Origin: a virus | Lineage: Duplodnaviria; Heunggongvirae; Uroviricota; Caudoviricetes | Virus record (IMG/VR): IMGVR_UViG_3300008108_000037 | Coordinates: 68,002-132,001 of that record | Strand: one strand, 5' to 3' | Length of the DNA: 64,000 nucleotides | Shown: positions 4,526-32,431 of the stretch, piece after piece | How the letters are laid out: every line of letters begins with the position of its first letter | Position numbering within the stretch: the first letter of the stretch is position 1 | The notes under the pieces: model-generated | What the model saw: only the letters and a program-made list of their open reading frames with translations | Told to the model about the DNA's origin: nothing | The model's database searches: none | Position numbers and translations under genes: made by a program

Positions 4526-4527
4526 AG

Positions 4528-19532: not shown

Positions 19533-20679
19533 ACTCTAATAAATAATCTCCAATGTCTAGATTTCTTATAGAATCCATCATTTTTAAAAAATTGGAAGAT
19601 TTTTTTTCTAAATTCCCATCTTTTTTATTTTCTATCTCGTACATAAATCTATTTCTGTCGCCATCTCCCAATTTGTAGATTTGCTCCATTGCAAGATCCT
19701 TCAGCTTTGGGTGTAAACAAGATATGTGTAAGTAATTGGGGCTATAGACAAAATTATATTCAATTTGTTCACCGGAAAAAAACTCTCTAAAATTCCACAC
19801 ATTACAAACATTCAAAACACTTATTGTCTGGGTTATAGTAATTTGTAATTTTTCTTTTTTCAGTTTTAAAAAATTATCATACACAACTTCCCATTTTGAA
19901 GGATATCTTATATAATCATTCCTATTTCCAACGTCGTCTATAGAAAGCTGTAGTTTTACCTCCCGAAATTCTCTTAACAGCTCTAAAAACCTGTCTGGTA
20001 AATTTGTACAGTTTATGTTATATACCAGCTTTATATTTTTTGATTTGTCTAGAGAAATCAACTTCTCCAAAAAGTAAAAATGCTCCTTTATCAACGTTGG
20101 TTCTCCCCCGTTGATGTAAATTTCCTCCAATTCGCTAGAATGCTTTAATAATTCATCATACCATTCTTTGTTTTTAAACCAATCGCTTTTATAATCTTCA
20201 TAGTTGTAATGATCGTCTCCGAACGTGGACGGAAATCTTTTAACATCTTCTATCCACTTGCTACTTGACATCGGGTTGCATGTTAAACACTTTATGTTAC
20301 AAACATTACCGAGTCTTAATTCGATAAACTTAAGATGTATATTTGGGAGTTTTTCGCTTATACTTATTTTATTGAGATATTTAGCATTTTCTTCATCTCT
20401 TTTACTCTTGAATCCGTTTTCTTCTATCCTGTAACAACCTATACATTCGATAGGTTTCTCATTATTCATCATCTTTCTTCTAATTTCTGTGAAAGAATCA
20501 GAATTCATAATGTCTTCTATGCTATCCTTACCTAGGGTTAATACTCTATTTTTAGTTTTGGAGAAACAAACCCCATTTTCAAAATTAGCAATACAACAAG
20601 GTGACACCAGCCCGTTAGGATGAGTTGCTAAATGCGTAAACGGTAACGAACATATAGTTTTTAAATTTGTGTCCACCAT
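19510..20679 (-). CDS. radical SAM enzyme with N-terminal Cys-rich extension (short subfamily)
   Basis: CSLPFTHLATHPNGLVSPCC and CIGCYRIEE precede LGNVCNIKCLTC (CX3CX2C); IYINGGEPTL (GGEP SAM-binding glycine motif). Confidence 0.6.
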   Translation of the reverse strand: MVDTNLKTICSLPFTHLATHPNGLVSPCCIANFENGVCFSKTKNRVLTLGKDSIEDIMNSDSFTEIRRKMMNNEKPIECIGCYRIEENGFKSKRDEENAKYLNKISISEKLPNIHLKFIELRLGNVCNIKCLTCNPMSSSKWIEDVKRFPSTFGDDHYNYEDYKSDWFKNKEWYDELLKHSSELEEIYINGGEPTLIKEHFYFLEKLISLDKSKNIKLVYNINCTNLPDRFLELLREFREVKLQLSIDDVGNRNDYIRYPSKWEVVYDNFLKLKKEKLQITITQTISVLNVCNVWNFREFFSGEQIEYNFVYSPNYLHISCLHPKLKDLAMEQIYKLGDGDRNRFMYEIENKKDGNLEKKSSNFLKMMDSIRNLDIGDYLLEYENCDLL

Positions 20680-21998
20680 TCTAATAATTTTTTGTTTTGT
20701 CCTAGAATATTCTCAAATGTTAATGATCCATTTAAACCGTCCTTTCTGAACTCTGCTATTCTTATCATGTTTTCTTTCCCTCTCTTTCTGCCCTCTTTAT
20801 AATCTGGATACGATTCTTCGAAAGTTTTTTTGGTTTTTAAATCTTCTAAAGCCTCCACATAAATTTGGGTTTTCGATGTAACCCTTGGCTTAATGTAATC
20901 TAGGGTATCGTCTATAATTTCTTCGAGGATGGACCTAGGTATTGACAATGGAGACATAAGAACAGAGGAATCGAAAGAAAAAGTTGTTTTTATATAGGTT
21001 ACTACATTTAATTCCACTGCACGATCGAATAATTCTTTTATAGACAGTAGGCCTGGAAGAGTTATTGTAAGATCAAAAACCATTCCATGATCGCCGTATA
21101 AATCGTTTAGAAAAAGACCTCCCTTAAAATTATCTAGCCACTTTTCCCACACTATTCCAGTTCTGATAAATTCAACAATTTTTCCAGTTCCATCTATACT
21201 TGCACACAGATTTACCCTTTTAAAATGAGGCAGAAAATCATATAGATTCATTCCTTTATATGATACCCTGCTTAAATTTGTGTTGTATCTTATTATAACA
21301 TTCTTGGATTGATTATTATCAACCAAATACTTCATGATATCCCAATGAATGTCCCACATCAATGGTTCACCACCTACCCAATATATTTCTTCTATTCTAT
21401 TCTCTTTCACTGCTTCCCAAAGTTCGTTTTCAGTAACTTCTTTCTGGAATTTTTTAAATTTTTCTTGATTTTCTTTTTTATAAAATGGCTCGGTTTCTAA
21501 ATTAATGTTGCCCATTATTTTTCTTTCCGCCTCCCACTGTGAACTTAACAAGTCGCCACACATTCTACATTTAAAATTACACAGATTACTTATCCGATAG
21601 TCATATGATATTGGTTTCATGTGAGTGTAACCATCATCTTCCGTTTTTTCGAATATCTCGTCTATTTTGTGGGGAAAAAGTGTATTGGTGAAATAACCTT
21701 TGTATGTGTAAAGATTTAGAATTTGATCGTTACAAACCTGACATTGTGGAATTGACTCTCCGGACATTATTCTTTTTCTAATGTTTTTCATATAATCACT
21801 ATTCCAATGATCCTCCAGCGAAACTGGTTTAAAATGTGAGTTATCGTCAGGATTTTCAGAATCTATGTACTGTTTAATATAGTTTGCCTTTTCCCTACTT
21901 GCACAACATAATCTTCTTTCCCCCTGTGGGGAAAGATATGTGTGTGTCCACGGTGCTGTACAAAAAAATTCATTTCCATCCGAAGGTTTTATTCTCAT
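20661..21998 (-). CDS. radical SAM enzyme with N-terminal Cys-rich extension (short subfamily)
   Basis: FCTAPWTHTYLSPQGERRLCC, CQVCNDQ, then ISNLCNFKCRMC (CX3CX2C), IYWVGGEPLM. Confidence 0.6.
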   Translation of the reverse strand: MRIKPSDGNEFFCTAPWTHTYLSPQGERRLCCASREKANYIKQYIDSENPDDNSHFKPVSLEDHWNSDYMKNIRKRIMSGESIPQCQVCNDQILNLYTYKGYFTNTLFPHKIDEIFEKTEDDGYTHMKPISYDYRISNLCNFKCRMCGDLLSSQWEAERKIMGNINLETEPFYKKENQEKFKKFQKEVTENELWEAVKENRIEEIYWVGGEPLMWDIHWDIMKYLVDNNQSKNVIIRYNTNLSRVSYKGMNLYDFLPHFKRVNLCASIDGTGKIVEFIRTGIVWEKWLDNFKGGLFLNDLYGDHGMVFDLTITLPGLLSIKELFDRAVELNVVTYIKTTFSFDSSVLMSPLSIPRSILEEIIDDTLDYIKPRVTSKTQIYVEALEDLKTKKTFEESYPDYKEGRKRGKENMIRIAEFRKDGLNGSLTFENILGQNKKLLEWWTQI

Positions 21999-22915
21999 AT
22001 TAATCTGCTAGATTTTATTATATTCTGCGTATAGAGATCACCCCTTCCGTTTGAAATCCATTCATACAACAATTCTGCCCATAATTTGTGCGATTTGGGT
22101 GTTGGATGTACACCATATAATCTTTCCTCCAACGGTATCTGTTTTATATAATTTAAAAATGAATTTGATGGCTTGTCTTTCATCAGAAAATTGGATTCTG
22201 GTACATGGTCCCATTTTAATTTACTCATACGGTATAGATCCTCCCCCCAAATACCTTCAACATATTTGAAAGAATCTATCCATTTCATAATATTTAAGTC
22301 TATAAATTTTCTTTCCATTTTATAGATATGATGTTCCTCAGGTAAAGCATTGAACAAATAACATGGAATTCCGTACTTATCGCAAAACGTACGTATTTCA
22401 AAATTGTAGTTTATGAAATCGTACGCTCCTTCATAGTCATTTTGAACAACCGATAAATACCACTTAAAGAATTCCCTCATTCCATATTCCTCTTTATTGA
22501 AATCTCCGTTACTGTTTAGAGTTTTTCGGTATATTTTATTATGAGTATTGAAAAAAAATTCCTTTCTAACTATAGAGGTCCATCCAATGACTACAATGAT
22601 GTCATCTGGAGTTTTATTAGGGACAATGTAGTTTTCAAGTAGCCAGTTTAAAAGTGTTTCAAAAATCCATTTGTTACCTACTGCAGGCTTGGCTAAATTT
22701 ATAACCTCTTTTGCCCCTATTAATTCTTTTAAATATGTTGGCCAAATTCTTTCAATCCTATATTGATCGTTTTTTGCGTCAGTATCTTCTTCTATTATCC
22801 CGTTAAATTTATTTATTTGGTGAGGCTTTGATGGAGCTTCCAAAAACTGTGGGTCCACAATTTCACTACCATATGTAAAGCTATCTCCGCACACAACTAA
22901 TTTCATTTCACTCAT
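21995..22915 (-). CDS. SGNH/GDSL-family hydrolase-like protein
   Basis: N-terminal KLVVCGDSFTYGSE. Confidence 0.5.
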   Translation of the reverse strand: MSEMKLVVCGDSFTYGSEIVDPQFLEAPSKPHQINKFNGIIEEDTDAKNDQYRIERIWPTYLKELIGAKEVINLAKPAVGNKWIFETLLNWLLENYIVPNKTPDDIIVVIGWTSIVRKEFFFNTHNKIYRKTLNSNGDFNKEEYGMREFFKWYLSVVQNDYEGAYDFINYNFEIRTFCDKYGIPCYLFNALPEEHHIYKMERKFIDLNIMKWIDSFKYVEGIWGEDLYRMSKLKWDHVPESNFLMKDKPSNSFLNYIKQIPLEERLYGVHPTPKSHKLWAELLYEWISNGRGDLYTQNIIKSSRLI

Positions 22916-24467
22916 CTTTAATATATTTTAGCATTTCATCCTGGATATCGGGTTCGATGTAATCCTGAGATCCTGGATTGCTATTTTGAGGATCTAATAC
23001 CCATCCCTCTTTTTTTGCGGTTTCTATCACATCGTCGACATATTTATTAGATTTAGCATCGTCACCATCAACCATTCCTATTTCAAGGGGCTCTATTTTT
23101 GTTTCAGGTATCGAATCGAACCATTCTGATAACATCGGGAATGATTCTTTAAAATTCCTATTTCTTCTTATGTCATATTGAATATAAAAAGATTTAAAAT
23201 CTCTTTCTCTAGATTCAATAGATGATGTAAATCTATGCCCAGTTTCAACTTCTCTTATGTAAGCAATCATTCTGATTATTCCATCTCTCTCAATATCTAG
23301 TAAATCAGAAATATTCTTACTTAGCCATCCCTCTATATGATTTGCTCGTTCAATTCTTATGTCTTGCGGTAGTGTAACTATAGACTGAAAGCTTGGAAAC
23401 CTTAATATATTAAAAGAACAAATCGGGAAATGCTTGCCAAATTTTTTCTTCATTTTAATTACCTCATCCATAAATTCAGTAAGACTAAACAGACACAAAG
23501 AATTTATAGTCATCATTACGTTTAGGGATGCCAATTTACCTTCTTCACAAACCCTGTACATATTTTTAAGCCATTTTTCCCAGATTAATCCATATCTGAT
23601 ATACTCAGCTTGCTTCCCTGTTGCTTCGCATGATGTGTAGAGATGAAACGTTTTAAAGCTGTGTGTCGACTTAATAAGTTCTTCCAAGAGTTCGTCTTTC
23701 TGTCCTAGATTGGAGTTAACTGCAAATTCCACACTACAATCCTTATTGGTTTCCCACCATTTCATCAGTTTCCAGAAATCTTGAGACATTGTTGGTTCAC
23801 CTCCTGTTACTCTCAATTCTCTTAAAGAATATTGAAGCTCTCCCTCCCACCATTTCCAAAATGCTTCGATGTATGGATTTCCGATATTTTTTTTACCGTA
23901 TGGGAGAGAGTGCGAACCATCATGCTGGAAAGCAGCTGCACCATCACTTACTAAATTCTGATATGGGCCGAACTTTTTTATATCATTTTGCCAGGTTGTA
24001 GAAAATGAAGAATTGCAGTAAGAGCATGCAAAGTTACAATTGGGATCGAATGCAATTTCTAATGTTTTTAGATCCACGTCTTGCTGCCATCCGAGTTTGT
24101 TCTTGGCATCTTTTAGTTCTTCATCGGTGTAAATAACAGATTTATAAACCCGATCAGAAACTTTGTCGCTTCCCATGTCCTCTATTTTCCAGCAATACTC
24201 GCATTCTTTAGGTCTTTCTCCCTCCAGCATTTGTTTTCTGACCAATTTTTTATAGCTAGTGTTGTGTATTGCTTTATAACTTTGCGCAACTTCTGCGAGG
24301 GGTATTTTATGAGCTGGGGGGTGATGGCAACTAGCTGTAGTTCCGTTTCCTAACCAGATTGTTGCGTTATACCATTTAGCACCACAGAAGGAAGGGGAAA
24401 CAGAGTTTATCGCTCTGTCCCTATATTCTTGGTAGCTCTCCTCTCCTTTTTTTGCAAATATTCCCAT
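22908..24467 (-). CDS. radical SAM enzyme with N-terminal Cys/His-rich extension (long subfamily)
   Basis: SFCGAKWYNATIWLGNGTTASCHHPPAHKIPL, ECEYCWKIED, then FDPNCNFACSYC (CX3CX2C), LRVTGGEPTM. Confidence 0.6.
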   Translation of the reverse strand: MGIFAKKGEESYQEYRDRAINSVSPSFCGAKWYNATIWLGNGTTASCHHPPAHKIPLAEVAQSYKAIHNTSYKKLVRKQMLEGERPKECEYCWKIEDMGSDKVSDRVYKSVIYTDEELKDAKNKLGWQQDVDLKTLEIAFDPNCNFACSYCNSSFSTTWQNDIKKFGPYQNLVSDGAAAFQHDGSHSLPYGKKNIGNPYIEAFWKWWEGELQYSLRELRVTGGEPTMSQDFWKLMKWWETNKDCSVEFAVNSNLGQKDELLEELIKSTHSFKTFHLYTSCEATGKQAEYIRYGLIWEKWLKNMYRVCEEGKLASLNVMMTINSLCLFSLTEFMDEVIKMKKKFGKHFPICSFNILRFPSFQSIVTLPQDIRIERANHIEGWLSKNISDLLDIERDGIIRMIAYIREVETGHRFTSSIESRERDFKSFYIQYDIRRNRNFKESFPMLSEWFDSIPETKIEPLEIGMVDGDDAKSNKYVDDVIETAKKEGWVLDPQNSNPGSQDYIEPDIQDEMLKYIKDE

Positions 24468-24468
24468 G

Positions 24469-25122
24469 TTAAATTATTTTGGCGCTAGGCGCTATTTTAT
24501 TGAATTCGTTGATCGAATGGCTAGAGTATTCTGGATCTTCAAATATAATTCCATGATTTCCGTTCCCACTTTTATCGAATGTTTTAAATTTTGAATTTCT
24601 TTCAAAATCAAAAAACGAGTACAGCTTTTTTGATTTCTCGTCAAAGGAATCGACGATTTCATCGAAAACTGCAATTTTATAAATATCCCCTTTGAACCAG
24701 CATTCATAAGATCCACTGTATGGATTTATAGATCCTATAAAAATATTCTTGTCTGAATAAGATTCAATTGGACCGGTTTCTTTTTCACCTTTTAAAATTC
24801 CATCGATGTATATTTTAACAGAATCTGAAACTGTCACCATGACCTCCATTCTTTTATGTATATCATCAACAGGTATCCAAATATCGTTATATTGATAGGG
24901 TTTAGTGTACCAAGAGAATTTAACACCATTTGGTTTCTGTAAAAATATTCCCATATGGTATCCTATCCTTCCTACAATCAACGACTCATCCTCTGCAAAC
25001 TCAGAGAGTTGAAAATCCCCATAAAGAGAAAAATTCCCCTCCAGATTTTCAAAATTCTTTGTGTTCGTATTATTTTTAGAATTGTTTGGGATGTAATATG
25101 CTTTCTTTTCGAATCTCATCAA
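24469..25122 (-). CDS. LamG/concanavalin-A-like lectin-fold protein
   Basis: IYIDGILKGEK...NIFIGS...WFKGDIYKIAVFDEI matches the LamG F-x-G-x-I-D-E-hydrophobic signature. Confidence 0.4.
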   Translation of the reverse strand: MMRFEKKAYYIPNNSKNNTNTKNFENLEGNFSLYGDFQLSEFAEDESLIVGRIGYHMGIFLQKPNGVKFSWYTKPYQYNDIWIPVDDIHKRMEVMVTVSDSVKIYIDGILKGEKETGPIESYSDKNIFIGSINPYSGSYECWFKGDIYKIAVFDEIVDSFDEKSKKLYSFFDFERNSKFKTFDKSGNGNHGIIFEDPEYSSHSINEFNKIAPSAKII

Positions 25123-26501
25123 ATTATTTTTTTATAAAATTCCTCAAATTCTGGAAAAACCTTCAAAAAATTGGTGCCTCTTCTTTTATCGTGATTGTCT
25201 ACAAAAATTCGGAAATCCCTCCTGTTCTGTAATAAGGTCTCTTCAGGTTCTTCCGTTACCATCCAATCATGAATTCTATTTAACTTATTGATTTCGATGT
25301 CGGTATATCCAAATCCATCAAGACCAACTCTTATTTGTTCGTAGAAGTCCATTAGCTGAGCTTGCTCTTTTACTACTGCAGACCATTCCTTATCTAATAT
25401 TTTCACTGTCTGGTGTGGAGGCCACCTTAAATAGGACGAGTCTAACATAATAGAGGAGCCATAGTATCTGTGAGGGTTGTGATATTCTTCCTTAAGCTTT
25501 ACCACATTTTCTATTAACTTTTCATAATTAGGAACGGAAAGTGCGTTATATGTGGACATTATTATTACGGTCAGAGGCTCAATTTCTTTCAATAGAAAAT
25601 TAACTCTATCCCACCATTGGTTGAAGACCAAACCATGTCTAATGTATTCAGCTTGTTCTCCCCAGGTATCTGCACTGGTAAATAGTATCACCTCGTTTAC
25701 CCTGTTCTCGTCTATCATTCTTTTTAATTTTTCTACCATTAGATTAAAAAGCTTATCTGGTGCTCCTAAATTCGTATTGAGAGAAAAATTTAAATTTCTG
25801 TTTGGGTTTTTTTCATCCAAGATATAATCAAAAACCTTAAAAGTGTCTTTAGACAGAAGAGGTTCCCCTCCCGTTATTCTAAAAGTATGAAGATCTCTGT
25901 ATAAATCAGGCCACCATTTCCAGAAAGCCTCAACGTATGGGTTCTCCTGATTATGCGGTCTTGGGATCATGTTCAGATCCTTCAAATATTCTAAATTGTT
26001 AAATCTAAAGCTGGTAGGATATGGTCCATGCTGCTCTATTTCTTGAACCCATTGGGAAGAGAACGACGGTCCACAATACGAGCATTTAAAATTACAGTGA
26101 TTACTAAAAGCTACCTCAACATACTTAGGATTGTAATTTTCTTTCCACCCTAAATCTTTTATTTCATTAAAATATGGGGCAGACCAGGGTTCAGAAGATT
26201 TATAAATTCTATCGGAAAATGCATTTGATGTATCTTCTATATTCCAGCAATAATCGCATTCGTCTGGTCTTTTACCGTGAAGCATTTTTCTTCTCTGCTG
26301 CTTTTTATAAACTGTATTATGTAGAGCAGATGGGTTTTTTTCTAACTCTGATAGTGGGATATGATGCGTGCCTGGATGGTGACACGAATGTGTTTGTCCC
26401 ATTTGTAAATGAAGTGTTACTTGAGTCCATTTTGCTAAACAAAAGCCACATCCAACATCGTTTAATTTATTTCTAGTTTTGTCGAAAAATTCGTTTAGCA
26501 T
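25119..26501 (-). CDS. radical SAM enzyme with N-terminal Cys/His-rich extension (long subfamily)
   Basis: GCGFCLAKWTQVTLHLQMGQTHSCHHPGTHHIPL, ECDYCWNIED, then FSNHCNFKCSYC (CX3CX2C), FRITGGEPLL; paralog of 22908-24467. Confidence 0.6.
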   Translation of the reverse strand: MLNEFFDKTRNKLNDVGCGFCLAKWTQVTLHLQMGQTHSCHHPGTHHIPLSELEKNPSALHNTVYKKQQRRKMLHGKRPDECDYCWNIEDTSNAFSDRIYKSSEPWSAPYFNEIKDLGWKENYNPKYVEVAFSNHCNFKCSYCGPSFSSQWVQEIEQHGPYPTSFRFNNLEYLKDLNMIPRPHNQENPYVEAFWKWWPDLYRDLHTFRITGGEPLLSKDTFKVFDYILDEKNPNRNLNFSLNTNLGAPDKLFNLMVEKLKRMIDENRVNEVILFTSADTWGEQAEYIRHGLVFNQWWDRVNFLLKEIEPLTVIIMSTYNALSVPNYEKLIENVVKLKEEYHNPHRYYGSSIMLDSSYLRWPPHQTVKILDKEWSAVVKEQAQLMDFYEQIRVGLDGFGYTDIEINKLNRIHDWMVTEEPEETLLQNRRDFRIFVDNHDKRRGTNFLKVFPEFEEFYKKII

Positions 26502-27808
26502 TATAGTAATCTTTTTTTAATTATCGGATTGAGACTCTCCAAACAAATTAGATCGTTTGGTAAATTTCTGTGTTTTGAATTATTTGCAATCATTAAATCG
26601 TGTCTTTCTTTATGATTTACCCATGGATTATCTCCAAATAATCTTATATGTTCATTTATACTCGATATAAATATCTTCGATTCAAAGTCGTCGTTATCTA
26701 AAATAAACTCTGGAAGATGATACGAATTAACAAACGGAACAATGTAATCATAATTTCTCCTGAGAATTGATTCAAAGCTATTTTTTATATTCGCTCCGTC
26801 AAGTAATATACATCCATTCTTGACGTAGAATATTATATTCTTTTTACTATCCTTTAAAATATTTAAAATTATTTGGGATTCTAAATCTTCCGATGATGTG
26901 TCCAAGAAAACATATTCATATTCAAAATGATCAGTAATCATGCTTCTGAGCGTCTCCTTGCTGTTTTTTTCGATCACAAAATATCTAAGATTTTTAAATT
27001 TATTTTTATAAAAGTTTAGCGTAGTTTCCAAAACCCCTCCATAATTTTCTTCAGCTCCATCTACCGAAATAAAAGCACAGACCTCAGTAGAGATGCACGG
27101 TATGTCTTCATATGGTGGATAATGATTGTCTCTAAAATTTACTAGCTGTTTATAAAGAGAATTTGATATGGTTGAAGGAAATTCGCAGTTTGATAACGCA
27201 AGGCCAAAAACAGCTCCCTCTCCTCTTAAATCATCATCAGCCTCCTTCGCTACCTTTTTTCTAAGCATCGAATAAAATTCATAGGTTTCAAACAATTTGT
27301 CTATCTTTTCTTCGTCAATACCCTCGAAATTAAAATACATTAAATCTTCCCATGGAGTAACTGTATTTCTAAATTCAACATTATTTTTTATCAGCTCATC
27401 TTTAAATTTTCCAAGTTTTGGATTCGTTTCTAATAAGGCTTTGAAATGTATGCTTGTAAATCTGTTGTATGAAAATCCTGGATTAAAATTCTTAGAAATA
27501 ATATCATTTATGAATTCTTCAGAATTTATCAATATCAGATCAGAATCCATATAAAGTATTTTATTATACCCCCTTTTTCTTACCTGGTTAATGAATATAA
27601 ATTTGCTATGAAAATCAAAGGTTGTGGAAAAATCGTGCTTTATTGTTTCAACCCCTTCCATGTCTTTGAATTCTGACACATTATCAGTGTAAACAAATAT
27701 TTTAAAAGATCCACTATCAGTGAAATTCTTTATTAAAAATTTGCAGCAGGTATAATAATACTCAGTATTAGAAGCAATTGTCGCTATTGCTATTTTATTT
27801 TCCATCAT
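26501..27808 (-). CDS. putative GT-A fold glycosyltransferase (DxD)
   Basis: N-terminal IAIATIASNTEYY and ILYMDSDLILIN (DxD) resemble GT8/GT77-type nucleotide-diphospho-sugar transferases; weak. Confidence 0.3.
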   Translation of the reverse strand: MMENKIAIATIASNTEYYYTCCKFLIKNFTDSGSFKIFVYTDNVSEFKDMEGVETIKHDFSTTFDFHSKFIFINQVRKRGYNKILYMDSDLILINSEEFINDIISKNFNPGFSYNRFTSIHFKALLETNPKLGKFKDELIKNNVEFRNTVTPWEDLMYFNFEGIDEEKIDKLFETYEFYSMLRKKVAKEADDDLRGEGAVFGLALSNCEFPSTISNSLYKQLVNFRDNHYPPYEDIPCISTEVCAFISVDGAEENYGGVLETTLNFYKNKFKNLRYFVIEKNSKETLRSMITDHFEYEYVFLDTSSEDLESQIILNILKDSKKNIIFYVKNGCILLDGANIKNSFESILRRNYDYIVPFVNSYHLPEFILDNDDFESKIFISSINEHIRLFGDNPWVNHKERHDLMIANNSKHRNLPNDLICLESLNPIIKKRLL

Positions 27809-29251
27809 TTATGCTTTGCAATTAATCAGAAGGGTATTGTTGAATACCTCTTTAGTAGAGACTAACTCGTACTTCATACTGTTGAATCCCTCACTTTTAT
27901 AGTTTATACATTTCCTTTGCATTTCAGTTACGAACCTTTTTTCATTTCTTGCTGTTGTTTCCCCCTTTGCCCACTTATTATTTACTAGCCCTTCGTCAAT
28001 GTGTGGTAAACACTCGAAAGATCCTTCTCTCCTATAAGGAATTGGCATGTCGCTAACCTCTATGGAATCTTCAACGATTTCTAAATTATAAGCCTTAGCT
28101 TTAATTCCACTCATTACGTCTTCGATTTCTCCATTTTCTATCAAATCAAATTTAAAATGCAGAACTGGCTTATGTTTTAAATCGTGAAATTTAGTAACAT
28201 CTCCTGGAATTTTTACTGCCTTATCAAAAATCATTAATTCTGCAATTTCACCTCTAAAAAATAATGGATTTTCCTCGTCGCCGTTATATCCCATGATAGA
28301 TTTTTCTTTATCCCTATACTGAAATAAATCATTATTTATTATTGTAGATTTATTTTCTTTGATTCCTTTTTCGTTAGATCTTGCTAGTTCGTCATTTAGA
28401 AAAAAATTAAAGTGACCACTTGAAGAATCATAAGATGTTGTTACCCAGGACCAAACACCATCATCCCTCTTGATCCAATTATAGATCTGGGATGATGAAA
28501 AATCTGAAATCATGCTAGTAACAGCTCTGGAGTTGTTAAAAGATATGCAGTACGGACTATATGATTGCTTTCGGAAAACCGGAAATTCTATGAATTTTTT
28601 GTCATCCGTTCCTATTAGCCAATCTTTATATTTTTCAGGTTGTTGTTCTGCTTTAAATAGAGCACATACCGTATGATCTGATCCCAGTATTTTGTTTATG
28701 GATTTTATCCATGGGATTTCAACATATGAGTTGTTTCCATTAAATCTTGAAAATTTTCTTTTTTTATATTTTTTATAAATCCTTTTTTCAACATATCCTT
28801 CGAAATAACATCGATAAAAAAGGTCGTCATCTTCCATACCCCAATCCCAATAATCATTAGAATATCCGTTAGTTTTTATAACTTGATCCTTAGTAAATAG
28901 AATTACCCCACCGAAGTATTGTTCATAATTTAGTTTGAAATCGTACTTCGAAAGTTTTGTTGCTATATGAATTGGATATTTTTCCGGATATGAATAGTCA
29001 CAATCATCGGAGAATGGCACCATATCAACGTCATGCCATGCAATATAATCACATCCATCATCGAAGGCAAACTTGGCTGCTATGTTTTTCATTAGTCCCC
29101 TATTAAACAGCTTATTATCCACCTGATGGGCCACATAAAATTTATGATCTATTCCACGATTTTTTAGATACTCCCCCAGGTCTTCAGTTAGCTTCTGTAA
29201 GTGATCGAATCTATTTCTGTAAGGTATGCAAATTCCCAGTTTATGACTCAT
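27809..29251 (-). CDS. GT7-family (beta-1,4-galactosyltransferase-like) glycosyltransferase fused to C-terminal LamG-like domain
   Basis: FNRGLMKNIAA...DYIAWHDVDMVP...YFGGVILFTKDQVIKTNGYSNDYWDWGMEDDDLFYRC is the GT7 core (FNRG, DVD, WGWGxEDDD); C-terminal FFRGEIAELMIFDKAV LamG signature. Confidence 0.55.
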   Translation of the reverse strand: MSHKLGICIPYRNRFDHLQKLTEDLGEYLKNRGIDHKFYVAHQVDNKLFNRGLMKNIAAKFAFDDGCDYIAWHDVDMVPFSDDCDYSYPEKYPIHIATKLSKYDFKLNYEQYFGGVILFTKDQVIKTNGYSNDYWDWGMEDDDLFYRCYFEGYVEKRIYKKYKKRKFSRFNGNNSYVEIPWIKSINKILGSDHTVCALFKAEQQPEKYKDWLIGTDDKKFIEFPVFRKQSYSPYCISFNNSRAVTSMISDFSSSQIYNWIKRDDGVWSWVTTSYDSSSGHFNFFLNDELARSNEKGIKENKSTIINNDLFQYRDKEKSIMGYNGDEENPLFFRGEIAELMIFDKAVKIPGDVTKFHDLKHKPVLHFKFDLIENGEIEDVMSGIKAKAYNLEIVEDSIEVSDMPIPYRREGSFECLPHIDEGLVNNKWAKGETTARNEKRFVTEMQRKCINYKSEGFNSMKYELVSTKEVFNNTLLINCKA

Positions 29252-30654
29252 ATTCCTACGTTAATTTCTGTTATATTTCCCTCTCTTTTTCTTCCGTGAT
29301 CTGTGTACTTTAGATCCGATAATCCGTCTCCAAATAAAAGATTGCTGTTATTTCTTACCTCGTTATAGAATCTTAATTGATTCCATCTAGTTGCTTTATC
29401 CTTCCATCTATTTTCGAAGAAACCATTTTGCTCATGTTTCATGGATTTAAAGATAGAATCCCTTCTGATCGGAAGGTCTATTTTTTTAAACCAAGGACCT
29501 TCCATATCAACAATTTCACATTTGAAAATACTAGCATCGTTTCCGTTTCCTGAAAGATCTACTAACTTATAATTTTCTATGTGCTCTGCATCATAGTGAC
29601 AAAGAATGGATCCGGATTTTTTATATTCCGAAAAGTCGTTTGTTGCTGAAACAGATTTAACTTCATTTTCACTTAAAATTCCTTCTAAGACTACCAAAGA
29701 ATCTATGTACCCCTTGAAAAAATTAGGATCTCCATTTCTTTTAGGATTTCCTGCACCGATAAAGAAATACTTTTCGTCTGAATAATCCTTTAATTCTCCC
29801 TCCCAATTTGTTTTTCCTATATGTTCTCCGTCTTGATAGAAATTTATTTCTCTCAACGATTGATTTAATGTGATACAAATATTTGTTTGATAATTAGTAG
29901 TTATTTCTGTGTTTATGTATGATGCTTTTTCTTCGGAGTTGAATGTAACAAAATTGTATCTCTTGAATGAATTATAGGAAATTGCAGTGTCATACCCCGG
30001 AATGCTAAAAACCGTATAAACATCAAGATCCTTCGTTGAATCATAAACCAATTCATCGGGGAAAAAAGATGCAAATAATGTTAGATCCTTGTCTATGCAA
30101 AAATTATTTTTTGCTCTCACAAAAGAATCCTGTCCGTTAAATTTTAGTGATTTATGGAAATTTCTTGTTTTTTTGATGTAATAAGGCTCTGTGCCTATGC
30201 TCTTGTTTTTGCATCTTAGGAAAAGGTCATCATCTTCAAATCCCCATCCCCAATACTTATTTGAATATCCGTTTATCTTTTTGAAATCTTTAATCGGAAA
30301 CATAGTGACCCCGCCGAAGTATTCGTCGAATGGCTTTGATCTTTCCCCCGAGTCCTCGTCCTCTATTAGAGTTGCAAGATGAACTGGATGATCACAGTAA
30401 GAATAATCAACATCCAATGGCAGCAAATCAACATCATGAAAAACCACATAATCACATCTTAAGTTTCTGGCACACTTAAATCCTATATTTAATAGCATCC
30501 CTCGATTAAATTGCTTACCGTCGTCTTGATTTACGATGATAATTTCATGTGGTATTTTTTCCTCGTTTAGATATTTTACTATCTCCTTGAGAAAAAAATA
30601 AAGATGTTCCCCTCTGTGGCGGAAAGGAACTATGACTCCTAGTTTTTTATCCAT
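29248..30654 (-). CDS. GT7-family (beta4GalT-like) glycosyltransferase fused to C-terminal LamG-like domain
   Basis: FNRGMLLNIGF...DYVVFHDVDLLP...YFGGVTMFPIKDFKKINGYSNKYWGWGFEDDDLFLRC; C-terminal FFKGYIDSLVVLEGILSENEV LamG signature; paralog of 27809-29251. Confidence 0.55.
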   Translation of the reverse strand: MDKKLGVIVPFRHRGEHLYFFLKEIVKYLNEEKIPHEIIIVNQDDGKQFNRGMLLNIGFKCARNLRCDYVVFHDVDLLPLDVDYSYCDHPVHLATLIEDEDSGERSKPFDEYFGGVTMFPIKDFKKINGYSNKYWGWGFEDDDLFLRCKNKSIGTEPYYIKKTRNFHKSLKFNGQDSFVRAKNNFCIDKDLTLFASFFPDELVYDSTKDLDVYTVFSIPGYDTAISYNSFKRYNFVTFNSEEKASYINTEITTNYQTNICITLNQSLREINFYQDGEHIGKTNWEGELKDYSDEKYFFIGAGNPKRNGDPNFFKGYIDSLVVLEGILSENEVKSVSATNDFSEYKKSGSILCHYDAEHIENYKLVDLSGNGNDASIFKCEIVDMEGPWFKKIDLPIRRDSIFKSMKHEQNGFFENRWKDKATRWNQLRFYNEVRNNSNLLFGDGLSDLKYTDHGRKREGNITEINVGI

Positions 30655-30856
30655 CTATTGTAGGGTCCTTTGGTTTTATCGATTTATGAAATTCCGTCAG
30701 ATAGTACTGAATCCTGTTGCTCCAATCATCCTTATCAATATCTTCTATCCAAGCTGAAATGTCATCGAGGGAATCTGAGATTCTTTCGAGTGCTTTTACT
30801 TTTCTAAGTTCCAATTCTAAAAATTGATCCTCGTTTGATTTTTTAGCTGTTGCCAT
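30647..30856 (-). CDS. small hypothetical protein
   Basis: 69-aa acidic ORF in the array; no motif. Confidence 0.2.
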   Translation of the reverse strand: MATAKKSNEDQFLELELRKVKALERISDSLDDISAWIEDIDKDDWSNRIQYYLTEFHKSIKPKDPTIDG

Positions 30857-30857
30857 A

Positions 30858-31706
30858 TTAGATTGATATTATTTTTTTAATTAAAGAGCTCCATTCTTTA
30901 TAATCTTCAAAATAGACGCATCCATATTCAAACATAAAATCAGAATTACTGAGGTCTATCCTAGATTTATTTCTCTTTATAGCATCATACATCACTTTAT
31001 ATTCGTCAGAATATGAATAATCCTGATTAATATCTGCGACATTTTTGATCCTTTCTAAGCATGTTGAATCCCATTTAAAATGGTGGACCTGGACGGAATA
31101 TTTTTCTACTGGTGCAATTAGTGGATGGCTCCATCCTTGCCACCTCCAGGTAGTCTGCCCATTTATTTTTGCATAATGCTGCCCAGAAGTTATTTCAATT
31201 CCTCCTTTAACCAAGCAGATTTTGTTAGGGCATGCGTTACTCATGGGGTATCTGAAAAATCCGGCTATGGGAAACTGGTCAAAGATTGGTACATCTTCAA
31301 GTATCTTACAGAACTCCCCGTTGTTTCCTATCCTGTCTAGAAATCCTCCCCTAATTAATTCCCACCCCTGACTTTCACAATCACTAACCATATAATTAGG
31401 TGACTCAGGATAAACGTGAAATTCGTCTATATCAGCAATCATGTACCAGTTGCTTCTTGATTTTTTTATTTGTTCATTATATAGATCAGTAACCCTGTTC
31501 CAATCAAAGATCCTATCATAAACAGTTTTAACTATTTTTACTTTTTCCTTACCTCGGATAGATCTTCTTACCTCTCTCTTTAAATCTGGATGCAGATCAG
31601 ATTCATAGACCACAAAATTTATTTCATCTACCATGTTATAATAATGATTGATGAAGTGTGGTATTAGAGGAACCCCATGACCTATTATAGATATTAATTT
31701 TATCAA
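30858..31706 (-). CDS. hypothetical protein, possible glycosyltransferase (DxD)
   Basis: WYMIADIDEF DxD-like block; otherwise unassigned. Confidence 0.25.
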   Translation of the reverse strand: MIKLISIIGHGVPLIPHFINHYYNMVDEINFVVYESDLHPDLKREVRRSIRGKEKVKIVKTVYDRIFDWNRVTDLYNEQIKKSRSNWYMIADIDEFHVYPESPNYMVSDCESQGWELIRGGFLDRIGNNGEFCKILEDVPIFDQFPIAGFFRYPMSNACPNKICLVKGGIEITSGQHYAKINGQTTWRWQGWSHPLIAPVEKYSVQVHHFKWDSTCLERIKNVADINQDYSYSDEYKVMYDAIKRNKSRIDLSNSDFMFEYGCVYFEDYKEWSSLIKKIISI

Positions 31707-32431
31707 ATCTCTTTTCTTTTAAATAGGGTTATTCCTGATGACGAAGGTTTATCTTTTAATGATCCGTAATTAAATAGACTGAATTTTTCCCATTCAGAGT
31801 CGTCAAAATCTTTTACAAATTGGGATGGACCAGAGAAATCGTGGAAATCTTTTTTCTGATCTTCAGATACTATGAAGCTGGAAGAAAATTTAGGATCTGT
31901 GTCATGGATTGCTATGATGCCCTGATCGTTCAAAATGTTTTTGTATAACTTAAAATCCTTGTCTACTCCTTCATATGAATGATCTCCATCTATAAAAAGA
32001 AAGTCTATTTTAATATCTTGTAAAACGAAAAAATCATAATATGCTCTTTCTGAAGTTTCTTTAACAAATCTTGGATGGAATGTTTTTCTGTAAAAACTTT
32101 CTTCATCACACATATTAGATTGTCCCCCTACACCATTACACGGATCTACCACATAAGTTGCTCCGATATTCCCCCAATTATAATCGGGATTTCCCGAGAA
32201 AGTTCCTATTGAATGCAGATCTATTCGGGCTTGTGTTAGAATTCGCGGAATATATCCGCCTCCACTTCCTATGCAAACACAATTTTTAAATCTGAAAAAT
32301 TGCACTAGAGAATAGATCAGAAGTCCATCCCCCATATCCAGATCAGTCGCTCCGTGGGAGTATCTGAACGGGACAGGATTGTCCAAATCGTTGGTTATTC
32401 TTTGTTTTATGTAATCAGTATTCAGAATCAT
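31703..32431 (-). CDS. class I SAM-dependent methyltransferase (TylF/CmcI, Methyltransf_24-like)
   Basis: CVCIGSGGGY and FLFIDGDHSYEGVDKDFKLY...GIIAIHD match the macrocin-O-MTase-type family; first gene of the minus-strand array. Confidence 0.5.
   Translation of the reverse strand: MILNTDYIKQRITNDLDNPVPFRYSHGATDLDMGDGLLIYSLVQFFRFKNCVCIGSGGGYIPRILTQARIDLHSIGTFSGNPDYNWGNIGATYVVDPCNGVGGQSNMCDEESFYRKTFHPRFVKETSERAYYDFFVLQDIKIDFLFIDGDHSYEGVDKDFKLYKNILNDQGIIAIHDTDPKFSSSFIVSEDQKKDFHDFSGPSQFVKDFDDSEWEKFSLFNYGSLKDKPSSSGITLFKRKEI

What the first reader, a model, noticed from the sequence alone, without database searches (positions are those of the whole stretch)
24469..30654. Animal-type GT7 (beta4GalT-like) glycosyltransferases fused to LamG lectin domains, plus a stand-alone LamG protein
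Two paralogs (27809-29251, 29248-30654) have FNRG, DVD and WGWGxEDDD blocks characteristic of the GT7 family. That family is mainly eukaryotic and includes chondroitin GalNAc transferases. Each is fused to a C-terminal LamG-like jelly-roll (F-x-G-x-I-D-E/S). A separate LamG-like ORF (24469-25122) follows a radical SAM gene. A GT7-lectin fusion in a phage next to sulfation genes suggests synthesis of a glycosaminoglycan-like sulfated glycan.
Basis: partly seen in the sequence, partly recalled or inferred. Interest (0 to 1): 0.6.

Follow-up and report, generated by a model that had tools for sequence, protein, structure and literature searches.

The report
Phage galactosyltransferase-like enzymes with inserted lectin domain
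Two neighbouring genes of an uncultured freshwater jumbo phage encode sugar-adding enzymes of the family best known from animal beta-1,4-galactosyltransferases, each interrupted by a lectin-like LamG domain; they belong to a conserved, unstudied gene cassette that most likely builds sugar chains on the phage's serine/threonine-rich tail fibres, and nothing supports the proposed sulfated, glycosaminoglycan-like product.

Summary
ORFs 29248-30654 and 27809-29251 (minus strand) are true GT7 (beta4GalT-like) glycosyltransferases that carry a LamG/pentraxin-like jelly-roll. ORF 24469-25119 is a stand-alone paralogue of that jelly-roll.

- The LamG domain is not C-terminal. It is a ~230-residue insertion inside the catalytic domain, between the catalytic-base helix (WGxEDDD) and the metal-binding histidine loop.
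- "Animal-type" is misleading. The catalytic core is 51-55% identical to small bacterial GT7 proteins and only 38% identical to animal beta4GalT1/T7. The same GT7+LamG architecture sits in bacterial polysaccharide gene clusters.
- No sulfotransferase or PAPS gene turned up in the 47 ORFs of the window I scanned, so the sulfated glycosaminoglycan idea lacks support.

The two genes are an old tandem pair inside a conserved cassette: methyltransferase, 282-aa GT-like protein, 69-aa helical protein, GT7-A, GT7-B, N-terminal-twitch radical SAM. I examined 80 of 541 matching IMG/VR viral contigs; the cassette keeps its order there and often lies directly downstream of tail-fibre genes, some of them proline-free (Gly-Thr-Ser)n collagen-like fibres like the one in this window.

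The family has no match in 50,697 GenBank phage records, and I found no paper describing it.

Best reading: soluble glycan-elongating enzymes, probably UDP-Gal-dependent, that use LamG to dock the acceptor, most plausibly virion fibre glycans. The target is inferred, not shown.

The parts
29248..30654 (-). GT7-A: 468-aa soluble GT7 (beta4GalT-like) glycosyltransferase. It has DxD (D74-V-D76), a G-loop (YFGGV), xED (E140-D141-D142) and a C-His (H407), all invariant or nearly so in 57 homologues.
29467..30159 (-). LamG/pentraxin-like beta-sandwich inserted in GT7-A (about aa 166-396), between the xED helix and the C-His loop. Boundaries are approximate.
27809..29251 (-). GT7-B: 480-aa paralogue, 30% identical to A over the full length. 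It has the same architecture, and its start overlaps the stop of A by 4 nt.
   Evidence: Pfam 7N and 7C; BLASTP A vs B E 5e-48; B orthologues are 72-74% identical to each other in the core and 42% to A.
28034..28750 (-). LamG-like insertion of GT7-B (about aa 168-406). Boundaries are approximate.
   Evidence: Pfam Laminin_G_3 E 3.3e-4; B-family profile vs stand-alone LamG family 96.7% probability, E 3.5e-10, B residues 181-386.
24469..25119 (-). Stand-alone LamG-like protein (216 aa from the ATG at 25119). It is a paralogue of the GT7 insertion and lies between two N-twitch radical SAM genes.
30647..30856 (-). Conserved 69-aa helical protein directly upstream of GT7-A, overlapping it by 8 nt. 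Function unknown.
   Evidence: Found in 80 of 80 related IMG/VR loci at the same position; sequences.
30858..31706 (-). Conserved 282-aa protein with a weak Glyco_tranf_2_4 (GT-A-like) match. It is a candidate for an earlier or initiating sugar transfer.
   Evidence: Pfam E 7.5e-5, below the cut-off; present in 78 of 80 loci; no PDB relative.
31703..32431 (-). Methyltransf_24 methyltransferase, the first gene of the cassette.
   Evidence: Pfam E 2e-11; present in 74 of 80 loci.
26501..27808 (-). 435-aa protein of unknown function between GT7-B and the first radical SAM gene. It is absent at this position in L049, L050 and L005.
   Evidence: No Pfam, NCBIfam or PHROG hit; synteny comparison.
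25119..26501 (-). N-terminal-twitch radical SAM enzyme. It follows the GT7 pair in most related phages.
   Evidence: NCBIfam NF033640 E 1e-98; present downstream in 68 of 80 loci.
19510..24467 (-). Three more N-twitch radical SAM paralogues (22908-24467, 20661-21998, 19510-20679) and an SGNH/DUF6071 protein (21995-22915).
   Evidence: NF033640 E 3e-91 to 8e-94; DUF6071 E 1.7e-12.
46154..50857 (+). Candidate acceptor (inferred): a 1567-aa proline-poor collagen-like fibre. It has 263 Gly-X-Y triplets, mostly GTS and GSS. Its C-terminal ~80 residues (about aa 1471-1552) resemble intramolecular-chaperone domains of phage fibres (assigned from memory, not run against Pfam).
   Evidence: Composition and triplet counts. 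The C-terminal domain has homologues directly upstream of the cassette in 20 of 80 related loci. Collagen-like ORFs lie upstream in 10 of 80 loci.

Best explanation
GT7-A and GT7-B are two old paralogues of the beta-1,4-galactosyltransferase family (CAZy GT7). They are soluble, cytoplasmic, metal-dependent inverting GT-A glycosyltransferases.

In both, a LamG/pentraxin-like beta-sandwich of about 230 residues is inserted between the helix carrying the catalytic base (WGxEDD) and the loop carrying the metal-binding histidine. In beta4GalT1 that loop closes over the donor and forms the acceptor site. The inserted domain therefore sits on the acceptor side. I infer that it docks or selects the acceptor. 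A stand-alone paralogue of the same domain is encoded among the radical SAM genes and may do the same job in trans.

The two enzymes are the centre of a conserved, tightly packed cassette: methyltransferase, 282-aa GT-like protein, 69-aa helical protein, GT7-A, GT7-B, N-twitch radical SAM enzymes. A large clade of aquatic jumbo phages carries it.

I propose that the two enzymes add two successive hexoses, most likely Gal from UDP-Gal in beta linkage, to a growing glycan. I propose that the glycan is carried by Ser/Thr-rich, often collagen-like (Gly-Thr-Ser)n, tail-fibre proteins. The product would be O-glycosylated virion fibres.

Shown: family, fold, insertion topology, conservation of catalytic residues, synteny, distribution.
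Inferred: donor, linkage, role of LamG, and the acceptor.

The confidence of 0.45 is for the whole statement. The enzyme and architecture part alone is about 0.9, and the fibre target about 0.4.
For: Family and fold:
- Pfam 7N and 7C above cut-offs.
- PDB hits E 1e-30.

Insertion topology:
- The N-terminal match ends at residue 165.
- A profile with the LamG spliced out aligns to beta4GalT7 across the junction, E 1.7e-39, with a collinear C-terminal stretch on beta4GalT1.
- Bacterial homologues are 210-265 aa with no insert.
- The tail of a 223-aa minimal GT7 (RKNSIFESMFHKPNG) aligns to residues 397-427 of GT7-A, E 2e-5.
- Many ~223-aa representatives match the profile in two stretches.

Likely active:
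- D74, D76, G114, G115, E140, D141, R51 and H407 are invariant in 57 homologues.

Donor hint:
- The equivalents of bovine beta4GalT1 Arg228 (FNR) and Tyr289 (YFGGV) are invariant.
- The role of R228 is described in PMC7185993.
- A UDP-galactopyranose mutase gene lies in the window at 61186-62274, E 3e-76, so UDP-Gal is used during infection.

Sugar acceptor hint:
- The aromatic positions of the beta4GalT7 xylose pocket are kept (F109, W137, F139), from the alignment.

Cassette:
- The same order is found in 80 IMG/VR loci: small protein 80/80, 282-aa protein 78/80, GT7-B 75/80, methyltransferase 74/80, radical SAM 68/80.
- Gene overlaps of 1-8 nt suggest one transcript (coordinates).

Link to fibres:
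- 45 of 80 loci have fibre-type or LamG_3 genes within about 4 kb upstream on the same strand.
- 10 loci have a (GTS)n collagen-like fibre there.
- L050 has a 1710-aa Ser-rich fibre directly upstream.
- The window's own fibre has 263 GXY triplets with Ser or Thr at 431 of the 526 X and Y positions.

Cytoplasmic acceptor:
- No polytopic membrane protein (flippase, polymerase, initiating phosphoglycosyl transferase or ABC permease) is found anywhere in the 64 kb.
- Neither GT7 protein has a transmembrane segment.
Against: - No direct evidence identifies the acceptor. Adjacency to fibre genes may only reflect conserved genome order.
- In this window the cassette lies 14 kb from the fibre gene and on the opposite strand.
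- The only cellular homologues with the same architecture lie in bacterial polysaccharide loci with ABC exporters. That points to lipid-linked glycans rather than proteins as the ancestral acceptor.
- Only 10 of 80 loci show a collagen-like fibre next to the cassette, and several of those are near-identical contigs.
- Donor and linkage are assigned by analogy with animal enzymes that are only 38% identical.
Confidence: 0.45

Rival explanations
1. Host-envelope remodelling. The cassette elongates a lipid-linked (undecaprenyl-PP) or envelope polysaccharide of the infected cell, using the host's own initiation and export machinery. The purpose could be to block superinfection or change the surface during infection.
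For: - Bacterial proteins with the same GT7+LamG architecture lie in polysaccharide clusters. In a Spirochaetaceae MAG the cluster holds an ABC transporter, GT4, GT2, a Glyco_tranf_2_4 protein, an FkbM methyltransferase and a radical SAM enzyme.
- A 636-kb bacterial contig carries three GT7(-LamG) paralogues with an FkbM methyltransferase and an ABC exporter.
- The aromatic acceptor pocket suggests a sugar acceptor, which fits either model.
Against: - The 64-kb window encodes no flippase, polymerase, initiating transferase or permease.
- The cassette usually follows fibre genes in related phages.
Confidence: 0.25
2. These are animal-type GT7 enzymes fused to lectins that synthesise a sulfated, glycosaminoglycan-like (chondroitin-type) glycan.
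For: - GT7 membership is real.
- The closest solved structure is the proteoglycan-linker enzyme beta4GalT7.
- The candidate fibre is full of Ser-Gly dipeptides, which resemble the GAG attachment motif.
Against: - No sulfotransferase or PAPS gene in the 47 ORFs scanned.
- No UDP-GlcA or UDP-Xyl enzymes, and no GT31, GT47/64 or GT14 partners, among those ORFs.
- The Tyr289 equivalent is Tyr, as in Gal-transferring rather than GalNAc-transferring enzymes.
- The nearest relatives are bacterial, not animal.
Confidence: 0.04
3. The cassette modifies something other than a protein or envelope glycan. Candidates are hypermodified phage DNA bases or a small-molecule or RiPP-like product, with the radical SAM enzymes doing the core chemistry and the GT7 enzymes decorating it.
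For: - Four or five N-twitch radical SAM paralogues and a methyltransferase are linked to the GT7 pair.
- A conserved 69-aa protein lies directly upstream.
- Phage glycosyltransferases are known to glycosylate DNA, as cited in PMC12619734.
Against: - The 69-aa protein is helical and acidic, with no Cys/Ser/Thr-rich core typical of RiPP precursors.
- No hydroxymethylase-type DNA-modification gene was seen among the scanned ORFs.
- LamG domains are typically protein- or glycan-binding.
- GT7 enzymes are not known to act on DNA (my own knowledge).
Confidence: 0.1
4. The proteins are catalytically dead and act as lectin-like structural or adhesive virion components.
For: LamG_3 proteins occur among fibre genes in related loci.
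Against: - Every catalytic-core residue (DxD, G-loop, xED, C-His, FNR) is invariant across homologues down to 30% identity.
- Both paralogues have been retained as a pair across the clade.
Confidence: 0.03

Closest known systems
Animal beta-1,4-galactosyltransferases, CAZy GT7 (beta4GalT7, PDB 3lw6/4irq; beta4GalT1, PDB 1o0r)
   Same: - DVD, FNR(G), YFGGV and WGWGxEDD motifs, plus a histidine in the C-terminal loop.
- Expected inverting, Mn2+-dependent UDP-hexose transfer.
   Different: - No N-terminal membrane anchor or stem, so the phage proteins are soluble and cytoplasmic.
- A ~230-residue LamG domain is inserted before the metal-binding loop.
- Core identity is only 38%, lower than to bacterial relatives.
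- Donor and acceptor are untested.
Bacterial single-domain 'minimal' GT7 proteins of 210-265 aa (Parachlamydiaceae, Verrucomicrobiota, Beta- and Alphaproteobacteria, SAR11), uncharacterised
   Same: They are the closest catalytic cores (51-55% identity) and share the C-terminal motifs (R-x-x-S-x-F-x-S-[LM]-x-H, N-Q-L/F, DGL-S-L).
   Different: They have no LamG insertion. They are cellular, single genes in varied contexts.
Bacterial GT7+LamG proteins in polysaccharide loci (Spirochaetaceae MAG L009; GCA_942490635.1 contig L133), uncharacterised
   Same: - Same three-domain Pfam signature and length (480-500 aa).
- Multiple paralogues per locus.
- Co-occurrence with methyltransferase, GT-A and radical SAM genes.
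   Different: - They are embedded with ABC exporters, GT4 and GT2 genes.
- They are 28-48% identical.
- No fibre genes lie nearby.
Polypeptide GalNAc-transferases (GT27), a GT-A catalytic domain plus a ricin-type lectin domain
   Same: - The logic is the same: a GT-A enzyme from the same evolutionary clade as GT7 (PMC7185993) is coupled to a lectin-like domain that guides acceptor choice on Ser/Thr-rich substrates.
   Different: - The lectin is a C-terminal ricin B fold, not an inserted LamG.
- The mechanism is retaining.
- They are eukaryotic Golgi enzymes.
Virus-encoded virion glycosylation: mycobacteriophage capsid and tail-tube O-glycosylation (Freeman et al. 2023, cited in PMC12619734). 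From my own knowledge: chlorovirus PBCV-1 capsid glycosylation, Mimivirus collagen-like fibril glycosylation, Bacillus anthracis BclA collagen-like Thr glycosylation.
   Same: Virus- or cell-encoded cytoplasmic glycosyltransferases lie near structural genes, and Ser/Thr-rich or collagen-like proteins serve as acceptors.
   Different: - Different GT families are involved.
- None is known to use GT7 with a LamG insert.
- Glycosylation is not demonstrated here.

Membership tests
CAZy GT7 / beta4GalT-like glycosyltransferases | Glyco_transf_7N and Glyco_transf_7C sequence signatures above curated thresholds | tested here: met
   A: 72.5 and 69.6 bits. B: 58.2 and 71.4 bits. Cut-offs are 27 and 23 bits. 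dbCAN itself was not available.
CAZy GT7 / beta4GalT-like glycosyltransferases | GT-A fold that is closest to solved GT7 structures | tested here: met
   [not shown]
CAZy GT7 / beta4GalT-like glycosyltransferases | Catalytic core residues: DxD, G-loop, xED catalytic base, C-terminal His, and FNR (Arg228 of beta4GalT1) | tested here: met
   D74, D76, G114, G115, E140, D141, R51 and H407 are invariant in 57 sequences, including paralogue B. The core definition is from PMC7185993.
CAZy GT7 / beta4GalT-like glycosyltransferases | Type II membrane topology with a stem region (the animal Golgi enzymes) | tested here: not met
   The proteins start directly with the first beta-strand, and the hydropathy scan finds no transmembrane segment. 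This is a feature of the animal members, not of the CAZy family as such.
CAZy GT7 / beta4GalT-like glycosyltransferases | Inverting beta-1,4 transfer of Gal or GalNAc from a UDP-sugar | not testable with these tools
   Needs enzyme assays. Only conserved Arg228 and Tyr289 equivalents hint at Gal.
LamG / Laminin_G_3 (concanavalin A-like lectin/glucanase superfamily) | Pfam PF13385 above the gathering score | tested here: inconclusive
   Met for GT7-A (33.2 vs 27.6 bits). Below the cut-off for GT7-B (21.3) and the stand-alone ORF (23.0). Both are rescued by profile-profile matches.
LamG / Laminin_G_3 (concanavalin A-like lectin/glucanase superfamily) | Two-sheet jelly-roll fold matching solved LamG or pentraxin domains | tested here: met
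   [not shown]
LamG / Laminin_G_3 (concanavalin A-like lectin/glucanase superfamily) | Ligand (carbohydrate, Ca2+ or protein) binding | not testable with these tools
   No coordinates or binding assay were available.
Glycosaminoglycan (chondroitin-type) synthesis and sulfation system | Sulfotransferase(s) and PAPS supply | tested here: not met
   No Sulfotransfer, APS-kinase or ATP-sulfurylase hit in the 47 ORFs scanned with Pfam, 10 of them also with NCBIfam. ORF 2360-2851 has no hit at E<=1 and no PDB relative. ORFs shorter than about 150 aa were mostly not scanned.
Glycosaminoglycan (chondroitin-type) synthesis and sulfation system | Paired GalNAc/GlcA transferase activities (GT7+GT31 or a K4CP-type dual GT2) and UDP-GlcA supply | tested here: not met
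   [not shown]
Phage virion-protein glycosylation systems | Phage-encoded glycosyltransferases genetically linked to structural genes | tested here: met
   Fibre-type or LamG_3 genes lie within about 4 kb upstream, on the same strand, in 45 of 80 related loci. In the window itself the fibre gene is 14 kb away on the other strand.
Phage virion-protein glycosylation systems | Glycans covalently attached to virion proteins | not testable with these tools
   Needs virions or heterologous co-expression followed by mass spectrometry.

The most novel reading that the evidence does not exclude
The LamG module may be a shared substrate-recruitment domain for a whole virion-maturation pathway. It would be built into the two GT7 enzymes and supplied in trans to the N-twitch radical SAM enzymes, in the way RiPP recognition elements serve RiPP enzymes.

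The pathway would turn a proline-free (Gly-Thr-Ser)n collagen-like tail fibre into a densely O-galactosylated and further modified triple helix, with glycosylation replacing hydroxyproline as the stabilising factor. From my own knowledge, galactosyl-threonine plays that role in the cuticle collagen of the vent worm Riftia.

If so, this would be a new class of phage-encoded protein glycosylation machinery, widespread in aquatic jumbo phages.
Probability: 0.15. Interest if true: 0.8.

Novelty: new variant of a known kind. Interest (0 to 1): 0.5.

Why it matters
GT7 is textbook animal Golgi enzymology: lactose synthase, N-glycan galactosylation and the proteoglycan linker. This work shows a large, unstudied prokaryotic and viral branch of the family.

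Its size:
- 16,547 cluster representatives match at E<=1e-3 and 1,130 at E<=1e-30.
- At least 541 IMG/VR contigs encode relatives.
- None of the 50,697 GenBank phage records has a match.

In this branch a lectin-like domain has been inserted next to the acceptor site. The enzyme has been fixed as a tandem pair inside a conserved cassette beside tail-fibre genes.

If the fibre-glycosylation reading is right:
- It extends virion glycosylation from mycobacteriophages to abundant freshwater and marine jumbo phages.
- It suggests how proline-free collagen-like fibres could be stabilised or masked.
- It offers soluble, bacterial-expression-friendly GT7 enzymes with a built-in targeting domain for glycoengineering.

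If it is wrong, the family is still a clean target for working out what a LamG insertion does to a GT-A enzyme.

Tried and rejected
- Megablast of 24000-31000, and tblastn of both GT7 proteins, against 50,697 GenBank phage records gave no match.
- PHROGs gave no family for the GT7, LamG, 282-aa or 435-aa proteins. NCBIfam gave none for them either.
- The sulfation claim: Pfam at E<=0.01 to 1, and NCBIfam, on 47 ORFs found nothing. ORF 2360-2851, with a 'PRTGSTSL' P-loop that looked sulfotransferase-like by eye, has no Pfam, NCBIfam or PDB relative. I do not count it as a sulfation gene.
- A single-sequence profile comparison of GT7-B with the stand-alone LamG family was weak (37% probability). 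It was resolved by building a 20-sequence B-family profile.
- hhalign of a minimal GT7 against the full family returned only the N-terminal hit. The C-terminal correspondence was then shown by BLASTP of the tail alone.
- PDB sequence searches for the 282-aa protein and the radical SAM enzyme found nothing useful.
- The promoter and terminator scan of 24-33 kb was no better than shuffled sequence.
- The only GenBank phage relative of the radical SAM enzyme, Ralstonia jumbo phage RsoM2USA gp349 (38% identity), sits among unannotated hypothetical proteins.
- Literature searches for Glyco_transf_7C or GT7 in phages, for lectin-bearing galactosyltransferases in phage metagenomes, and for glycosylated collagen-like phage fibres found no description of this family. 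The 'moraphage' paper mentions four core glycosyltransferase orthogroups in Bacteroidota jumbo phages but gives no detail. I could not tell whether this phage belongs to that lineage.
- Recent eukaryote-to-phage transfer was considered and set aside, because animal sequences are not the nearest neighbours. The tree is a rough neighbour-joining tree on 151 columns with only two animal sequences.

Full report
**1. What is there**

The window is AT-rich (about 30-38% G+C outside the repeat-rich 46-54 kb stretch). It carries 22 tRNA genes and a tmRNA gene. It also carries a 1567-aa collagen-like fibre gene, whose C-terminal ~80 residues look like the intramolecular-chaperone (S74-type) domain of phage fibres; that assignment is from memory and was not run against Pfam.

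From 647 to 32431 nearly all genes lie on the minus strand, tightly packed. The three ORFs of the finding exist as described, all on the minus strand.

An identical copy of GT7-A and its neighbourhood occurs on freshwater metagenome contigs of 51-56 kb. The longest contig carrying the identical protein is 219 kb.

**2. The GT7 assignment is solid**

- Both large ORFs match Pfam Glyco_transf_7N and Glyco_transf_7C well above the curated thresholds.
- GT7-A matches solved beta4GalT7 and beta4GalT1 at E about 1e-30 over residues 4-165.
- An AlphaFold2 model built on 57 homologues has mean pLDDT 93.6 and pTM 0.89.
- The residues that define the GT-A catalytic core, as described by Taujale et al. 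(PMC7185993), are invariant across the alignment, paralogue B included. They are DxD (D74, D76), the G-loop (G114, G115), xED (E140, D141) and the C-terminal His (H407).
- The FNR arginine (Arg228 of bovine beta4GalT1) and the tyrosine of YFGGV (Tyr289 by my count on the alignment) are also invariant. Arg228 is linked to Gal-versus-Glc donor choice in that paper. From my own knowledge, Tyr289 limits the enzyme to Gal rather than GalNAc.
- On this basis I expect active inverting enzymes and a UDP-Gal donor. This is analogy, not a test.

**3. The LamG domain is an insertion, not a C-terminal fusion**

- A profile made from homologues with residues 167-387 spliced out aligns to Drosophila beta4GalT7 straight across the junction (E 1.7e-39). 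It also gives a weak collinear second stretch on the C-terminus of beta4GalT1.
- Bacterial homologues found in GTDB genomes are 210-265 aa and have no insert.
- One 223-aa representative reads ...GLEIQRKNSIFESMFHKPNG... immediately after the catalytic-base helix. That tail aligns to residues 397-427 of GT7-A (RRDSIFKSMKHEQNG), E 2e-5.
- The insert therefore spans about residues 166-396 in A and about 168-406 in B. It lies between the xED helix and the histidine loop.
- In beta4GalT1 this is the start of the long flexible loop that closes on the donor and creates the acceptor site (my own knowledge of that enzyme). The inserted domain is thus on the acceptor side.
- GT7-B aligns with A over its full length at 30% identity, E 5e-48.
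- A 20-sequence profile of B orthologues matches the stand-alone LamG family at 96.7% probability.

**4. The stand-alone LamG protein**

- It most likely starts at the ATG at 25119, giving 216 aa as called on the identical contigs. It has 42 homologues in the protein collection.
- It is homologous to the GT7 insert: hhalign 98.9% probability, E 3.4e-17, covering residues 187-397 of GT7-A, including the shared D-x-SGNGN-x-G strand.
- Its model (pLDDT 89.3) returns the same structural neighbours as the insert.
- In the window, in L005 and in L050 the equivalent gene sits between two radical SAM genes.

**5. Relatives and origin**

- A search of 5.8 billion proteins found 2081 relatives at E<=1e-3. 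The best 120 are all about 470 aa with the same architecture and no informative name.
- A full HMMER scan of 1.84 billion cluster representatives found 16,547 matches at E<=1e-3, 5,785 at E<=1e-10 and 1,130 at E<=1e-30. Among the best 150, full-length proteins are mixed with fragments and with ~223-aa minimal forms, some of which match in two stretches.
- IMG/VR holds 541 viral contigs with a relative, some longer than 300 kb.
- GenBank phages hold none.
- In GTDB genomes, full-length matches occur mainly on MAG contigs labelled Flavobacteriaceae, Flavobacteriales and Pelagibacter. The 248-kb Flavobacteriaceae contig carries the phage cassette and is probably a mis-binned phage.
- True bacterial examples also exist. 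A 500-aa GT7+LamG protein in a Spirochaetaceae MAG sits among an ABC-transporter ATPase, two GT4, a Glyco_tranf_2_4 protein, two GT2, an FkbM methyltransferase and a radical SAM enzyme.
- A 636-kb bacterial contig has three GT7(-LamG) paralogues with an FkbM methyltransferase, glycoside hydrolases and an ABC exporter.
- Over 151 core columns GT7-A is 51-55% identical to minimal GT7 proteins of Parachlamydiaceae and Verrucomicrobiota, 46% to the Spirochaete protein, and 38% to animal beta4GalT7 and beta4GalT1. GT7-B is 48% identical to the Spirochaete protein and 39-40% to the animal enzymes.
- The neighbour-joining tree is rough and has only two animal sequences. It gives no support for a recent animal origin.

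**6. The cassette**

- In 80 IMG/VR loci that are 45-60% identical to GT7-A, the order is kept on one strand: methyltransferase, 282-aa protein, ~65-aa protein, GT7-A, GT7-B, radical SAM.
- Counts are: small protein 80/80, 282-aa protein 78/80, GT7-B 75/80, methyltransferase 74/80, radical SAM 68/80. Shortfalls are partly due to contig ends.
- A and B are separate orthologue groups. In the core, A-A identity is 60-66%, B-B is 72-74% and A-B is 42%. The duplication is therefore old, and both copies are kept, as expected for two different transfer steps.
- In the window the genes overlap or abut by 0-8 nt (coordinates).
- All four radical SAM proteins at 19510-26501 belong to NCBIfam NF033640, the N-terminal-twitch family, with E 1e-91 to 1e-98. 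Their chemistry is unknown to me.
- The 435-aa gene between GT7-B and the first radical SAM gene is not found at that position in L049, L050 or L005.

**7. What the enzymes act on**

This part is inference.

*For a cytoplasmic, virion-protein acceptor:*
- The whole 64-kb window has no polytopic membrane protein that could flip, polymerise or export a glycan. The GT7 proteins have no membrane segment.
- In 45 of 80 related loci, fibre-type or LamG_3 genes lie within about 4 kb upstream of the cassette on the same strand. Fibre-type here means a C-terminal domain like that of the window's fibre (the putative chaperone domain), a T4-like fibre or a Gly-rich protein.
- In 10 of those loci the upstream gene is a (Gly-Thr-Ser)n collagen-like fibre of the same kind as the window's own. 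In others it is a Ser-rich fibre.
- The window's fibre has 263 Gly-X-Y triplets. X is Thr or Ser in 204 and Y is Ser in 218. It has only 38 prolines in 1567 residues.
- It is preceded on its own strand by more sugar-metabolism genes: GT8, a DegT-like fragment, a GT2-radical SAM fusion, a Gfo/Idh/MocA oxidoreductase and an ATP-grasp protein.
- A UDP-galactopyranose mutase is encoded at 61186-62274.
- The aromatic positions that hold xylose in beta4GalT7 are kept as Phe109, Trp137 and Phe139 (alignment). This suggests that the GT7 enzymes extend a sugar rather than start on a bare hydroxyl. The 282-aa GT-like protein is a candidate for the first step.

*Against:*
- The bacterial relatives sit in exported-polysaccharide loci.
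- In this window the cassette and the fibre gene are 14 kb apart on opposite strands.
- Adjacency alone is weak evidence.

I put the fibre-glycan model at about 0.4 and host-envelope remodelling at about 0.25. Other acceptors make up most of the remainder.

**8. The sulfated-GAG idea**

- I scanned 47 ORFs of the window with Pfam and 10 of them also with NCBIfam. No sulfotransferase, APS kinase, ATP sulfurylase, UDP-glucose dehydrogenase or UDP-xylose synthase turned up.
- ORF 2360-2851 has a P-loop-like 'PRTGSTSL' that may have prompted the idea. It matches nothing at E<=1 in Pfam, nothing in NCBIfam, and nothing meaningful in the PDB.
- Chondroitin enzymes are much weaker structural matches than beta4GalT7.
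- The Ser-Gly-rich fibre and the beta4GalT7 resemblance are suggestive, but they do not amount to evidence for a glycosaminoglycan.

**9. Novelty and verdict**

- The family and folds are known. The architecture (LamG inserted in a GT7 core), the conserved tandem pair, the cassette, and its distribution in aquatic jumbo phages and some bacteria are not described in anything I could find.
- One source labels a member 'beta-1,4-galactosyltransferase 1' automatically.
- I rate it a new variant of a known kind, of moderate interest (0.5).
It is wrong on topology, origin and product.

Noticed in passing
window 46154-50857 (+): A 1567-aa collagen-like fibre with 263 Gly-X-Y triplets (GTS x100, GSS x79) and almost no proline. 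It has two non-collagen globular inserts, and its C-terminal ~80 residues resemble intramolecular-chaperone (S74-type) domains of phage fibres (assigned from memory). The repeats explain the local G+C rise to 45-49% and several long spurious ORFs in other frames.
   Followed up: partly
window 19510-26501 (-): Four paralogous radical SAM enzymes, all NCBIfam NF033640 (twitch/SPASM-like Cys cluster at the N-terminus instead of the C-terminus), E 1e-91 to 1e-98. The only GenBank phage relative is an unannotated gene of Ralstonia jumbo phage RsoM2USA (38% identity). The substrate is unknown.
   Followed up: partly
window 36809-37191 (+) and 38855-61151: A phage-encoded tmRNA (tag peptide ending ...DYAIAA) and 21 tRNA genes, mostly clustered at 52-61 kb.
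   Followed up: no
window 1860-6433 (-): A run of small 2OG-Fe(II) oxygenase (prolyl-hydroxylase-like) paralogues: 1860-2363, 5343-6008 and 5942-6433 have Pfam hits, and 2848-3390 and 4022-4525 look similar by eye. They are interleaved with SGNH/GDSL-like proteins (647-1321, 3387-4022, 4528-5346). This points to further modification chemistry of unknown target.
   Followed up: partly
window 8613-10487 (-): A 624-aa protein with a C-terminal Hint/intein-like domain (Intein_splicing E 1e-10, PT-HINT, Vint) after a long N-terminal region of unknown function.
   Followed up: no
window 7975-8448 (-): A SET-domain protein (Pfam E 7.7e-8) in a phage. It may be a protein lysine methyltransferase.
   Followed up: no
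window 14452-16383 (-): A 643-aa fusion of a cupin/mannose-6-P-isomerase-like domain, a nucleotidyltransferase and an APH/choline-kinase-like kinase. It may be a one-protein route from a free sugar (or choline-like alcohol) to its nucleotide-activated form. It is conserved near the cassette in related phages.
   Followed up: no
window 40517-42700 (+): A 727-aa fusion of a GT2 glycosyltransferase with a radical SAM domain. It is followed by a Gfo/Idh/MocA oxidoreductase, an ATP-grasp protein and a PAP2-like protein just upstream of the fibre gene.
   Followed up: no
window 61186-62274 (+): UDP-galactopyranose mutase (GLF, E 3e-76). The phage may make UDP-galactofuranose.
   Followed up: no
window 16367-17098 and 17751-19532 (-): Proteins with a repeated 'MKIAI(C/L)xSGQxR' N-terminal motif. 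The 593-aa one is a tandem duplication with a weak DUF7796 match. They are conserved near the cassette in related phages. Function unknown.
   Followed up: no
window 12124-13732 (-): A protein with a shikimate-dehydrogenase N-terminal domain (13076-13732) lies next to an unannotated 319-aa protein. This is unexpected in a glycan-gene region.
   Followed up: no
proteins P0338, P0368, P0382: Giant proteins of 6,000-7,000 aa in the metagenome collection contain 13-20 tandem copies of a domain matching the GT7 LamG insert.
   Followed up: no
L005 (CBFHJJ010000001.1, 248 kb, labelled Flavobacteriaceae MAG): This 'bacterial' MAG contig carries the complete phage cassette in the phage order. It is probably a jumbo-phage genome binned as a bacterium. 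It may hint at a Bacteroidota host.
   Followed up: partly
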